Below are positions 58,672 to 58,746 of a stretch of 60,564 bases of DNA, in pieces. The notes under the pieces were generated by a model. The model was not told the origin of the DNA. It searched no databases and saw nothing but the letters and a program-made list of their open reading frames with translations. Each line of letters begins with the position of its first letter. Position 1 is the stretch's first letter. Location of the stretch: assembly GCA_945923475.1 (NCBI GenBank), contig CAMELE010000010.1, positions 1-60,564 on the forward strand, read 5' to 3'. The translations under genes and the position numbers were made by a program. The DNA comes from an uncultured Mollicutes bacterium. GTDB lineage: Bacteria; Bacillota_I; Bacilli_A; Acholeplasmatales; Anaeroplasmataceae.

Positions 58672-58746
58672 TGGCGGAGGGAGTGGGTGCTGCCCCCACT
58701 TCGCCGGTTTTAGAGACCGGAGCATTTGCTGCTATGCTATCCCTCA
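58672..58746 (-). tRNA. candidate amber-suppressor tRNA (anticodon CUA) with non-canonical D and T loops
   Basis: 75 nt and folds as a cloverleaf. 6-bp acceptor with unpaired N1:N72 (U1·C72), G73 and encoded CCA. D-stem GCAT/ATGC. Perfect anticodon stem CCGGT/ACCGG with loop CUCUAAA (anticodon CUA, U33, A37). Perfect T-stem GTGGG/CCCAC. D-loop AGCAGCAA lacks GG and T-loop GGCAGCA lacks TΨC. Confidence 0.55.

What the first reader, a model, noticed from the sequence alone, without database searches (positions are those of the whole stretch)
58672..58746. Phage-encoded tRNA with CUA anticodon and atypical D and T loops, under its own consensus promoter
A 75-nt cloverleaf sits on the gene strand. 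It has a perfect anticodon stem and a textbook anticodon loop CUCUAAA (U33, CUA, A37). It also has G73 and an unpaired 1:72 position, both reminiscent of tRNA-Gln identity, plus an encoded CCA.

The D-loop (AGCAGCAA) lacks G18G19 and the T-loop (GGCAGCA) lacks T54Ψ55C56. The shared AGCAGCA in both loops suggests a compensating tertiary contact. A canonical tRNA-Gln(UUG) lies 1.7 kb upstream, and a TTGAAA-N17-TATAAT promoter lies about 100 nt upstream of this gene.

This is the expected suppressor for the pervasive in-frame TAGs.
Basis: seen in the sequence. Interest (0 to 1): 0.85.

Follow-up and report, generated by a model that had tools for sequence, protein, structure and literature searches.

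The report
Hidden amber-suppressor tRNA, variant elbow
This is a real phage gene for a transfer RNA that most likely reads the stop codon TAG as glutamine, and its odd loops mark a widespread, apparently undescribed tRNA shape that the standard tRNA-finder runs here nearly always missed, which could explain part of why many stop-codon-recoded phages seem to lack a suppressor tRNA.

Summary
Window 58672-58746 (minus strand) is a 75-nt cloverleaf with anticodon CUA, a U1/C72 mismatch, G73 and an encoded CCA. It lies 98 nt downstream of a TTGAAA-N17-TATAAT promoter, in a window with about 100 in-frame TAGs.

ARAGORN and default Rfam miss it. Permissive Rfam gives 37.9 bits (threshold 29). Relatives carry ordinary CUA tRNAs at the same locus. 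A diverged copy in an unrelated contig shows three compensatory stem changes. TAG swaps mainly with CAA in orthologues, which points to Gln.

The odd loops are not a one-off. They fit a recurrent variant elbow:
- D-loop A-N-N-A-G-Y-N-A: G18 becomes A, G19 is kept.
- T-loop G-G-C-R-G-N-A: U54, U55 and A58 become G, C56 is kept.

I found 108 distinct tRNAs with this signature, covering many anticodons, in phage contigs and in Verrucomicrobiota tRNA arrays. Positions 16 and 59 covary almost deterministically. A covariance model built only from non-CUA members scores the candidate at 73.4 bits, against 29-37 bits for the window's canonical tRNAs. Default ARAGORN finds 3 of the 108.

Verdict: a functional amber suppressor, probably Gln-accepting, and a new variant of a known kind. 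No paper found here describes this elbow.

The parts
58672..58746 (-). tRNA(CUA) gene: amber-suppressor tRNA with a variant elbow. 75 nt, including the encoded CCA at 58672-58674.
   Evidence: Sequence. Cloverleaf as minimum-free-energy fold. Rfam RF00005 37.9 bits with permissive filters. Independent variant-elbow model R1 73.4 bits, E 3e-22, at exactly these coordinates. ARAGORN -mt calls it with anticodon CUA.
58711..58713 (-). Anticodon CUA, inside the loop CUCUAAA (U33, A37).
   Evidence: Sequence. The loop YUCUAAA is shared by all CUA tRNAs at the syntenic locus.
58726..58733 (-). D-loop AGCAGCAA: A14 G15 C16 A18 G19 C20 A20a A21. G18 is replaced by A and G19 is kept.
   Evidence: Sequence. 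Comparison with canonical D-loops of related CUA tRNAs, such as AGCGGTTA and AGAGGTA. The class signature A-N-N-A-G-Y-N-A is shared by the distinct variant tRNAs collected with it.
58688..58694 (-). T-loop GGCAGCA: G54 G55 C56 A57 G58 C59 A60. U54, U55 and A58 are replaced by G and C56 is kept. C59 matches C16 under the class's 16:59 rule.
   Evidence: Sequence. Class signature G-G-C-R-G-N-A. 16:59 mutual information 1.00 bit, with C16:C59 in 49 of 49.
58845..58873 (-). Sigma-70-type promoter-like site TTGAAA-N17-TATAAT. Its -10 hexamer ends 98 nt upstream of the tRNA 5' end.
   Evidence: 11 of 12 consensus match, tied for best in the region. Three exact matches in the window, all on the gene strand, against 0.19 expected by chance. 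Conserved in L007. Function is inferred, not shown.
58486..58571 (-). tRNA-Leu(UAA), canonical. It is the next gene downstream and is probably in the same transcription unit.
   Evidence: ARAGORN and Rfam 61.8 bits. Co-transcription is inferred from orientation and the lack of a promoter or terminator between them.
58360..58472 (-). RAGATH-33 RNA, in the same orientation within the cluster.
   Evidence: Rfam RF03102, 139.6 bits against a gathering score of 120.4.
58152..58225 (-). tRNA-Gly(UCC), canonical. It is the last RNA gene of the cluster.
   Evidence: ARAGORN and Rfam 62.3 bits.
58060..58100 (-). 17-bp hairpin followed by a U-rich tract. It is the likely terminator of the RNA cluster and lies just before the 883-codon TAG-rich gene.
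   Evidence: Read from the sequence. The hairpin also appears in the alignment of a chance Rfam match. The terminator scan did not list it, so this part is inferred.
60450..60524 (-). tRNA-Gln(UUG), canonical (A1-U72, G73, encoded CCA). It is the phage's sense-codon glutamine tRNA, 1.7 kb upstream.
   Evidence: ARAGORN, Rfam 65.4 bits and the sequence.

Best explanation
Window 58672-58746 (-) is a functional gene for an amber-suppressor tRNA with anticodon CUA. It lets this roughly 100-200 kb phage translate its many in-frame TAG codons, most probably as glutamine.

**Proposed steps (shown or inferred)**
1. Transcription starts at the sigma-70-like promoter at 58873-58845. The likely product is a multi-RNA precursor of tRNA(CUA), tRNA-Leu, RAGATH-33 and tRNA-Gly, ending at the hairpin at 58100-58060. 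This is inferred.
2. Host enzymes trim the ends. The CCA is encoded, as the sequence shows.
3. The RNA folds into a cloverleaf. The secondary structure is shown by covariation.
4. It then forms an L-shape held by a variant elbow:
   - The outer G19-C56 pair is kept.
   - G18/U55 is replaced by A18/G55.
   - U54/A58 is replaced by G54/G58.
   - C16 contacts C59.
   The co-occurrence and the 16:59 covariation are shown. The geometry is inferred.
5. A host glutaminyl system charges it, helped by the open 1:72 position and G73. This is inferred.
6. It decodes UAG in competition with release factor 1. This is inferred.

The tRNA belongs to a broad class of variant-elbow tRNAs with many anticodons, found in phage contigs and in Verrucomicrobiota. 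The class was nearly always missed by the finder settings run here.
For: **It is a tRNA.**
- Rfam tRNA model: 37.9 bits against a gathering score of 29.
- The cloverleaf is the minimum-free-energy fold.
- Core positions are present: U8, A14, A21, G10-C25, U33, A37, G53-C61, C56 and CCA.

**Synteny.** L004, L005 and L006 carry ARAGORN-called CUA tRNAs at the same place between homologous flanks. Across the three alleles, 100% of cells pair and 15 of 20 pairs change on both sides.

**Selection on the odd allele itself.**
- Near-identical copies occur in contigs 3300045988_158846, 3300045988_166471 and OJAW01000005.1.
- L010 shares nothing else with the window. Its copy has three compensatory double changes and fully conserved D- and T-arms.

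**A canonical relative.** L099 has the same acceptor and T stems but ordinary loops.

**The genome needs a suppressor.** There are about 116 in-frame TAGs, and homology continues through them.

**Glutamine.** TAG aligns with CAA in 33 of about 70 differing orthologous codons. The 1:72 mismatch, G73 and CCA are shared by nearly all CUA tRNAs of the lineage.

**Class membership.**
- Model R1 was built from 56 non-CUA variant tRNAs.
- It scores the candidate at 73.4 bits, against 36.6, 29.8 and 28.8 bits for the window's canonical tRNAs.

**The class is a real folded unit.**
- 108 distinct members were collected.
- 16:59 mutual information is 1.00 bit, against 0.33 in canonical controls.
- The rule was replicated in 18 of 19 tRNAs from an independent scan for 5-nt variable loops.

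**Promoter.**
Against: - There are no expression, processing, aminoacylation or proteomic data.
- The fold energy is not unusual for its composition (z = -1.49).
- The amino acid is inferred. In the one protein aligned to solved structures, TAG faces K, K, K, Q, F/Y and K. The codon-swap counts pool non-independent relatives.
- Only 60 kb of a genome of about 100-200 kb is visible, so a second, canonical suppressor elsewhere cannot be excluded. Related recoded phages carry up to three (PMC10607447).
- Replacing U54, U55, A58 and G18 removes contacts and modification sites that are almost universal, and no structure shows that the substitute contacts form.
- In L010 the 31:39 pair is A/C.
- The identity set is only partly Gln-like: A3-U70 and A38, rather than the G3-C70 and U38 of E. 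coli tRNA-Gln (own knowledge).
Confidence: 0.85

Rival explanations
1. It is a decaying tRNA pseudogene. An ordinary suppressor lost its conserved D- and T-loop nucleotides, and another tRNA does the work.
For: ARAGORN and default Rfam do not call it. It lacks G18, U54, U55 and A58. Its relatives have canonical CUA tRNAs. Only part of the genome is visible.
Against: - All four stems are perfect.
- The allele is kept in at least five contigs, and in L010 it has three compensatory stem changes with invariant D- and T-arms.
- Exactly the same loop substitutions recur in 108 distinct tRNAs with unrelated stems, along with 16:59 covariation.
- It occupies the very locus where relatives keep their suppressor, in a genome with about 100 in-frame TAGs.
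Confidence: 0.04
2. It is a tRNA-like RNA with a non-decoding role. It could be a ligand or decoy for an RNA-binding protein or a tRNA-targeting defence nuclease, or a processing signal within the non-coding RNA cluster.
For: It sits among ROOL, RAGATH-33 and other RNAs. The cluster lies about 8 kb from a DUF2828/DUF7788 protein that PHROGs labels as RNA-binding. Its elbow is non-standard. A weak match to the Tymovirus tRNA-like element overlaps it (23.5 bits, below threshold).
Against: - The anticodon loop is a textbook YU-CUA-AA, the 3' end is G73-CCA, and the acceptor features match those of canonical CUA tRNAs in the lineage.
- Class members carry 20 or more different anticodons and fill gaps in tRNA arrays, as decoding tRNAs would.
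- The genome needs a UAG decoder.
Confidence: 0.05
3. It is a working suppressor but inserts an amino acid other than glutamine, such as Glu, Lys, Tyr or pyrrolysine.
For: In the ribonucleotide reductase alignment TAG faces K three times and F/Y once. TAT, AAA and GAA also appear among the codon swaps. ARAGORN labels CUA tRNAs 'Pyl'. The Gln identity set is incomplete.
Against: - CAA is by far the commonest partner of TAG in both directions (33 of about 70), although it needs two base changes.
- The tRNA-Pyl architecture is absent: there is no 6-bp anticodon stem, 3-nt variable loop, single linker base or 5-nt D-loop (PMC7609411, against the sequence).
Confidence: 0.08

Closest known systems
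Suppressor tRNA(CUA) genes of TAG-recoded (code 15) phages: crAss-like, Lak, Agate, Sapphire and Phassvirus groups (10.1101/2021.08.26.457843; PMC9523058; PMC10607447)
   Same: It is a phage-encoded CUA tRNA inside a tRNA cluster, in a low-GC genome whose genes carry in-frame TAGs read as Gln. No dedicated synthetase is visible, so charging by the host is presumed.
   Different: The published examples were found with standard tRNA finders and so have ordinary D- and T-loops. This one has A18, G54, G55 and G58, and default ARAGORN and filtered Rfam miss it. [quoted passage not shown] This is a concrete instance.
Canonical CUA tRNAs at the same locus in sister phages (L004/L005 type, L006 type) and the L099 tRNA
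   Same: They share the genomic position and flanks, the YUCUAAA loop, the 1:72 mismatch, G73, the encoded CCA and the 4-nt variable loop. L099 also shares the acceptor stem (UGAGGG/CCCUCC) and the T stem (GUGGG/CCCAC).
   Different: Their loops are standard (D-loop with GG, T-loop UUCGANU). ARAGORN calls them, and Rfam scores them at 46-49 bits against 38 for the window's tRNA.
E. coli supE-type amber suppressor, tRNA-Gln(CUA), and the GlnRS identity set (own knowledge)
   Same: It has the CUA anticodon with U35, a weak or open 1:72 position, G73, G2-C71, G10 and A37.
   Different: It has A3-U70 instead of G3-C70, A38 instead of U38, and a non-standard elbow. The host and its route to Gln-tRNA (GlnRS, or GluRS plus amidotransferase) are unknown.
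tRNA-Pyl (PMC7609411)
   Same: It is a natural UAG-decoding tRNA that lacks the G18G19 and T-Psi-C motifs and uses an unusual D-loop/T-loop contact. It also has G73.
   Different: tRNA-Pyl has a 6-bp anticodon stem, a 3-nt variable loop, one linker base and a 5-nt D-loop. The window's tRNA has standard arm and loop lengths and keeps G19-C56.
Type II mitochondrial tRNAs, and tRNA-Sec with its C16:C59 contact (PMC7609411)
   Same: These are tRNAs that work without the canonical G18G19/T-Psi-C sequences. A 16:59 tertiary pair (C16:C59 in E. coli tRNA-Sec) is a precedent for the coupling seen here. ARAGORN's mitochondrial mode finds 104 of 108 class members.
   Different: Mitochondrial loops are variable and AU-rich, with no fixed replacement motif. 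Here a precise, G-rich replacement motif is conserved across hundreds of kilobases of unrelated phage and bacterial sequence.
Hirsh suppressor: tRNA-Trp G24A, a D-arm change that raises stop-codon read-through (own knowledge)
   Same: It is a change in the tRNA body, far from the anticodon, in a tRNA that reads a stop codon.
   Different: That is a single laboratory mutation affecting decoding fidelity. Here the body change is a conserved natural module that is also found on ordinary sense-codon tRNAs, so no special link to suppression is shown.

Membership tests
tRNA (Rfam RF00005) | Four-helix cloverleaf with standard arm lengths. | tested here: met
   The minimum-free-energy fold is the cloverleaf. 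The Rfam alignment covers model positions 1-71. Across the three alleles at the locus, 100% of cells pair and 15 of 20 pairs are compensatory.
tRNA (Rfam RF00005) | Score at or above the curated gathering threshold of 29 bits. | tested here: met
   37.9 bits, E 8.7e-6, with permissive filters. The default-filter scan of the whole window does not report it.
tRNA (Rfam RF00005) | Conserved tertiary nucleotides G18, G19, U54, U55, C56 and A58. | tested here: not met
   G19 and C56 are present. G18 is A, and U54, U55 and A58 are all G. The other core positions are standard: U8, A14, A21, U33, A37 and G53-C61.
tRNA (Rfam RF00005) | Called by a heuristic tRNA finder (ARAGORN). | tested here: not met
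   It is not called by the default, -ps or -ps90 modes. Only the metazoan-mitochondrial mode calls it, with anticodon CUA.
Amber-suppressor tRNA of TAG-recoded phages | Anticodon CUA in a 7-nt loop with U33 and a purine at 37. | tested here: met
   The loop is CUCUAAA at 58709-58715.
Amber-suppressor tRNA of TAG-recoded phages | The genome carries in-frame TAG codons inside conserved genes. | tested here: met
   Coverage by long frames rises from 71% to 90% when TAG is read through. About 116 in-frame TAGs are present. Homology of the ribonucleotide reductase to solved structures spans 7 TAGs.
Amber-suppressor tRNA of TAG-recoded phages | TAG corresponds to Gln codons in orthologues. | tested here: met
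   A window TAG faces CAA 15 times and CAG once out of 36. A relative's TAG faces a window CAA 18 times out of 34. The counts pool related contigs.
Amber-suppressor tRNA of TAG-recoded phages | The tRNA is expressed, charged and used at UAG. | not testable with these tools
   This needs tRNA-seq, acid-gel analysis and proteomics.
tRNA-Gln identity (E. coli GlnRS set, own knowledge) | Weak or open 1:72, G73, G2-C71, G3-C70, G10, U35, A37 and U38. | tested here: inconclusive
   Met: U1/C72 open, G73, G2-C71, G10, U35 and A37. Not met: A3-U70 and A38. The host's own identity rules are unknown. The phage's own tRNA-Gln(UUG) shares G73, CCA and a weak A1-U72 pair.
tRNA-Pyl | 6-bp anticodon stem, 3-nt variable loop, one base between the acceptor and D stems, and a 5-nt D-loop (PMC7609411). 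| tested here: not met
   The window's tRNA has a 5-bp anticodon stem, a 4-nt variable loop, two linker bases (U8, A9) and an 8-nt D-loop. ARAGORN's 'Pyl' label on the relatives only reflects the CUA anticodon.
Variant-elbow tRNA class (defined here) | D-loop A14-N-N-A18-G19-Y-N-A21 together with T-loop G54-G55-C56-R57-G58-N59-A60. | tested here: met
   The loops are AGCAGCAA and GGCAGCA. The same pairing occurs in the distinct tRNAs collected with this signature.
Variant-elbow tRNA class (defined here) | 16:59 rule: C with C, A with U, or U with A. | tested here: met
   The window's tRNA has C16 and C59. In the class, C:C holds in 49 of 49, A:U in 10 of 12 and U:A in 7 of 10. Mutual information is 1.00 bit, with 0 of 500 shuffles reaching it. 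The canonical control gives 0.33. The replication set gives 18 of 19.
Variant-elbow tRNA class (defined here) | High score with a covariance model built without it or any CUA member. | tested here: met
   R1 gives 73.4 bits, E 3.4e-22, over the full length. The window's canonical tRNAs score 36.6, 29.8 and 28.8 bits.

The most novel reading that the evidence does not exclude
The loops of this suppressor reveal an undescribed, evolutionarily maintained alternative tRNA elbow: A18 with G55, G54 with G58, G19-C56 kept, and a 16:59 pair. It would work in ordinary bacterial translation, would necessarily lack the near-universal T54 and Psi55 modifications (their target uridines are absent), and was nearly always missed by default ARAGORN and by filtered Rfam scans.

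If so, tRNA gene sets are being under-counted. That includes part of the roughly 60% of TAG-recoded phages reported without a suppressor, and Gly, Glu and His tRNAs in Verrucomicrobiota. The module may also give phage tRNAs independence from, or resistance to, host factors that recognise the canonical T-loop.
Probability: 0.5. Interest if true: 0.85.

Novelty: new variant of a known kind. Interest (0 to 1): 0.78.

Why it matters
**An open question about recoded phages.** Stop-codon-recoded phages are common in gut microbiomes. [quoted passage not shown] This locus is a worked example.
- The suppressor is present, at the place where sister phages keep theirs.
- Default ARAGORN finds none of the window-type copies and 3 of 108 class members.
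- Default Rfam filtering recovered 5 of 23.

A class-specific covariance model, or ARAGORN's mitochondrial mode, recovers them. That makes the 'missing suppressor' question directly testable across existing databases.

**A question for tRNA biology.** G18, T54, Psi55 and A58 are among the most conserved nucleotides in biology. A precise replacement set, with its own 16:59 covariation, is used on tRNAs for many amino acids in phage contigs and in one bacterial phylum. A structural biologist would want to see how that elbow is built. It also raises the question of how RNase P, the ribosome and the modification enzymes handle it.

**A practical use.** A naturally divergent elbow on an amber suppressor may be useful for engineering orthogonal tRNAs.

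Tried and rejected
- **Mis-specified pattern.** My first collection pattern had one N too many and found nothing. That scan is void.
- **Metagenome scan.** The scan with loops fixed gave 66 hits. All but one were chance matches in coding repeats. The one real hit was L054.
- **GenBank phage collection.** It holds no near match to the RNA cluster beyond ordinary tRNA-Leu hits, and none to a class member. I therefore could not check how curated records annotate such tRNAs.
- **Fold energy.** z = -1.49, not informative for a tRNA of this composition.
- **Amino acid from one protein against solved structures.** Inconclusive: K, K, K, Q, F/Y, K. I replaced it with codon swaps among orthologues.
- **Direct loop-loop pairing.** I considered pairing between the two GCAGC strings. 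They are identical, not complementary.
- **A G18-C56 / Y19-G55 two-base kiss.** I dropped this once canonical relatives showed that the D-loop change is best read as G18 to A with G19 retained.
- **tRNA-Pyl.** Considered and rejected on architecture.
- **Elbow specific to suppressors.**
  - Globally this is rejected. Class members carry many anticodons, including Glu, His, Gly, Gln, Thr, Ile, Cys, Asn, Met and Lys.
  - Within the window's own lineage it holds. Only CUA tRNAs score as class members in 713 kb.
- **The 700-nt spacer between ROOL and the promoter.** Its fold shows no significant stability (z = -0.68).
- **Not tested.** tRNAscan-SE is not available here, so its behaviour on this class is unknown.
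Full report
**1. What is at the coordinates**

On the minus strand, 58746 down to 58672 reads UGAGGGA-UA-GCAU-AGCAGCAA-AUGC-U-CCGGU-CUCUAAA-ACCGG-CGAA-GUGGG-GGCAGCA-CCCAC-UCCCUCC-G-CCA.
- Position 1:72 is U/C and unpaired, followed by six acceptor pairs.
- The D, anticodon and T stems all pair perfectly.
- The anticodon loop is CUCUAAA.
- The variable loop is 4 nt, the discriminator is G73, and the CCA is encoded.

The cloverleaf is the minimum-free-energy fold. 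The energy itself is unremarkable (z = -1.49).

ARAGORN calls three neighbours (Gly-UCC, Leu-UAA, Gln-UUG) but not this one. Rfam with default filters also misses it, while reporting ROOL and RAGATH-33 RNAs in the same cluster. With permissive filters the Rfam tRNA model matches end to end at 37.9 bits (gathering score 29, E 8.7e-6). All the lost score falls in the D- and T-loops.

**2. The context claims hold**

- **Upstream tRNA.** tRNA-Gln(UUG) lies 1.7 kb upstream.
- **Promoter.** TTGAAA-N17-TATAAT sits at 58873-58845. It is one of the two best promoter-like sites in the region; the other precedes ROOL. The exact pattern occurs three times in the window, always on the gene strand, against 0.19 expected by chance.
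- **Transcription unit.** Downstream in the same orientation come tRNA-Leu, RAGATH-33, tRNA-Gly and a 17-bp hairpin with a U-tract. The suppressor is therefore probably the first gene of a small RNA operon. This is inferred.
- **Recoding.**
  - Reading TAG through raises long-frame coverage from 71% to 90%.
  - About 116 in-frame TAGs lie in minus-strand frames bounded by TAA or TGA.
  - They interrupt an anaerobic ribonucleotide reductase, a RecJ-like nuclease, a radical-SAM enzyme and a PhoH-like protein.
  - The reductase aligns with solved structures straight through its seven TAGs.

**3. Relatives**

Anchoring on neighbouring stop-free genes recovered sister contigs of 100-200 kb from IMG/VR.

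- **Canonical alleles at the same locus.** Three sister contigs have a CUA tRNA that ARAGORN calls, in two further sequence types. All alleles share the YUCUAAA loop, a mismatched 1:72, G73, CCA and a 4-nt variable loop. Across them every stem cell pairs, and 15 of 20 pairs change on both sides.
- **Copies of the window's allele.** Two IMG/VR contigs and one 189-kb gut contig carry it with a single variable-loop difference.
- **A diverged copy.** L010 sits in a contig that shares nothing else with the window. It has ten differences. Six form three compensatory double changes (6:66, 7:65, 28:42). The D- and T-arms are untouched. That is the pattern of a selected RNA, not a pseudogene.
- **A canonical counterpart.** L099 has the same acceptor and T stems as the window's tRNA but ordinary loops (AGAGGUA, UUCGAAU). 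The odd form therefore looks derived from a standard suppressor.

**4. Which amino acid**

In orthologous genes, a TAG in one genome most often faces CAA in another: 33 of about 70 differing sites, counted in both directions. This is so even though the swap needs two substitutions.

Three further points support Gln:
- The open 1:72 and G73 are found in nearly all CUA tRNAs of the lineage.
- G73 and CCA are shared with the phage's own tRNA-Gln(UUG).
- The literature reports TAG-to-Gln in such phages.

Gln is the best reading, but it remains inferred.

**5. The loops belong to a class**

Fixing only the CUA loop, a GGCNGNA T-loop and GCCA recovered further CUA tRNAs with unrelated stems. Compared with canonical D-loops (ANNGGNNA), the pattern is:
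- G18 becomes A, and G19 is kept.
- U54, U55 and A58 become G, and C56 is kept.

It gave 68-71 distinct good cloverleaves with 14 anticodons: Glu-UUC 23, CUA 8-10, His 8, Gly 7, and others. It added 19 more, including Cys, Asn, Met and Lys.

In cellular genomes about 140 chance matches were expected. Nineteen of the 121 matches were good cloverleaves. Sixteen of those came from Verrucomicrobiota, inside tRNA arrays, and were Gly-UCC, Glu-UUC or His-GUG.

**6. Evidence that the variant loops interact**

Positions 16 and 59 are nearly deterministic:

| Pairing | Count |
|---|---|
| C16 with C59 | 49 of 49 |
| A16 with U59 | 10 of 12 |
| U16 with A59 | 7 of 10 |

Mutual information is 1.00 bit, and none of 500 shuffles reached it. 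Canonical tRNAs of the same architecture in the same loci give 0.33 bit with no exclusive pattern. The independent 5-nt-loop set obeys the rule in 18 of 19. A C16:C59 contact is known in E. coli tRNA-Sec (PMC7609411).

The stems of 56 non-CUA members pair in 94.6% of cells, with heavy covariation.

**7. Formal membership test**

A covariance model was built only from those 56 non-CUA tRNAs. The two models rank the window's tRNAs in opposite order:

| tRNA in the window | Class model R1 | Rfam tRNA model |
|---|---|---|
| Candidate, 58672-58746 (-) | 73.4 bits (E 3e-22) | 37.9 bits |
| Gly-UCC | 36.6 bits | 62.3 bits |
| Gln-UUG | 29.8 bits | 65.4 bits |
| Leu-UAA | 28.8 bits | 61.8 bits |

Over 713 kb of the window's own lineage, only CUA suppressors score 66.7 bits or more. 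The next hit, at 56.4 bits, is canonical. In this lineage, then, the module is used on the suppressor only.

**8. Detectability**

| Method | Class members found |
|---|---|
| ARAGORN default | 3 of 108 |
| ARAGORN -ps | 11 of 108 |
| ARAGORN -ps90 | 14 of 108 |
| ARAGORN mitochondrial mode (-mt) | 104 of 108 |
| Rfam, default filters and gathering score | 5 of 23, in 14 loci |

The window's tRNA is found only in ARAGORN's mitochondrial mode. In arrays such as L165, L179, L181 and L224, the missed tRNAs sit exactly in the gaps ARAGORN leaves. tRNAscan-SE could not be run.

**9. Literature**

Borges et al. detected TAG suppressors in 40% of TAG-recoded phage genomes and suspected noncanonical tRNAs. 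Searches for this elbow found no description. Reviews of noncanonical tRNAs and of T-loop conservation do not mention it. The library is not exhaustive.

**10. Conclusion**

It is a functional amber-suppressor tRNA, probably Gln-accepting (confidence 0.85 for suppressor, about 0.7 for Gln).

Its oddity is membership of a widespread variant-elbow class that appears to be undescribed. Why the class exists is open. The candidate explanations are neutral alternative architecture, independence from T-loop modification, and evasion of T-loop-directed nucleases. None was tested.

Noticed in passing
window 60359-60445 (-): A tRNA-Tyr(GUA)-like gene lies directly after tRNA-Gln, and ARAGORN does not call it. 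Relatives have a called tRNA-Tyr there. The window's copy has C33 instead of the near-universal U33, plus one compensated and one wobble change in the anticodon stem. Rfam matches it only weakly, as tRNA-Sec at 25.2 bits.
   Followed up: partly
window 59607-60193 (-) and 58360-58472 (-): A full-length ROOL RNA (321 bits) has its own TTGAAA-N17-TATAAT promoter at 60230-60258. A RAGATH-33 RNA (139.6 bits) is embedded in the tRNA cluster. Both are conserved in the sister contigs.
   Followed up: partly
window 58905-59600 (-): A stretch of about 700 nt between ROOL and the suppressor's promoter looks non-coding. The wider 58747-60265 stretch, which contains it together with ROOL, is about 90% identical in L054. 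The spacer matches no Rfam family, and its predicted fold is not more stable than shuffles (z = -0.68).
   Followed up: partly
L007 about 3213-3970 (also L002 and L054): A GIY-YIG homing-endonuclease-like gene (Pfam GIY-YIG, E 4e-7), which itself contains in-frame TAGs, is inserted between the promoter and the variant suppressor tRNA. It is absent from the window. It may help explain why different tRNA alleles occupy this locus in sister phages.
   Followed up: partly
L007 about 4150-4990 (also L002 and L005): tRNA-Leu(UAA) appears to be interrupted right after U34 of the anticodon loop by about 800 nt. This is the classic insertion site of the tRNA-Leu group I intron. ARAGORN no longer calls the tRNA there. 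Rfam reported no intron family at its gathering threshold.
   Followed up: no
window 45932-48415 (-), 48997-50535 (-), 40674-42053 (-), 53354-54415 (-): Several unusual phage proteins lie near the RNA cluster. One is an 827-aa protein with Major Vault Protein shoulder and repeat domains. Another is a DUF2828/DUF7788 protein that PHROGs labels as RNA-binding. There is also an SPFH/flotillin protein and an S-layer-homology-domain protein, which hints at a Gram-positive-type host.
   Followed up: no
L320 (Nibricoccus chromosome NZ_CP119759.1), L283, L288, L334, L356 and other Verrucomicrobiota loci: Variant-elbow tRNA-Gly(UCC), tRNA-Glu(UUC) and tRNA-His(GUG) genes sit inside large chromosomal tRNA arrays, in the gaps between the tRNAs ARAGORN calls. 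Near-identical tRNA-Glu genes occur in five Akkermansiaceae or Luteolibacter genomes. Whether they are the only isoacceptor copies is unknown.
   Followed up: partly
L110:1281-1355, L088:1109-1181: There are other unusual tRNAs in related phages. One is a CUA tRNA whose T-loop is AUCGUAA (A54 and U58 swapped relative to U54/A58). Another is a tRNA with anticodon UUA, a potential ochre suppressor.
   Followed up: no
window 23268-23296 (-): This is the third exact TTGAAA-N17-TATAAT site, on the gene strand. Short repeats resembling this promoter region also occur near 50607-50646 and 54472-54512, which suggests a phage promoter family.
   Followed up: no
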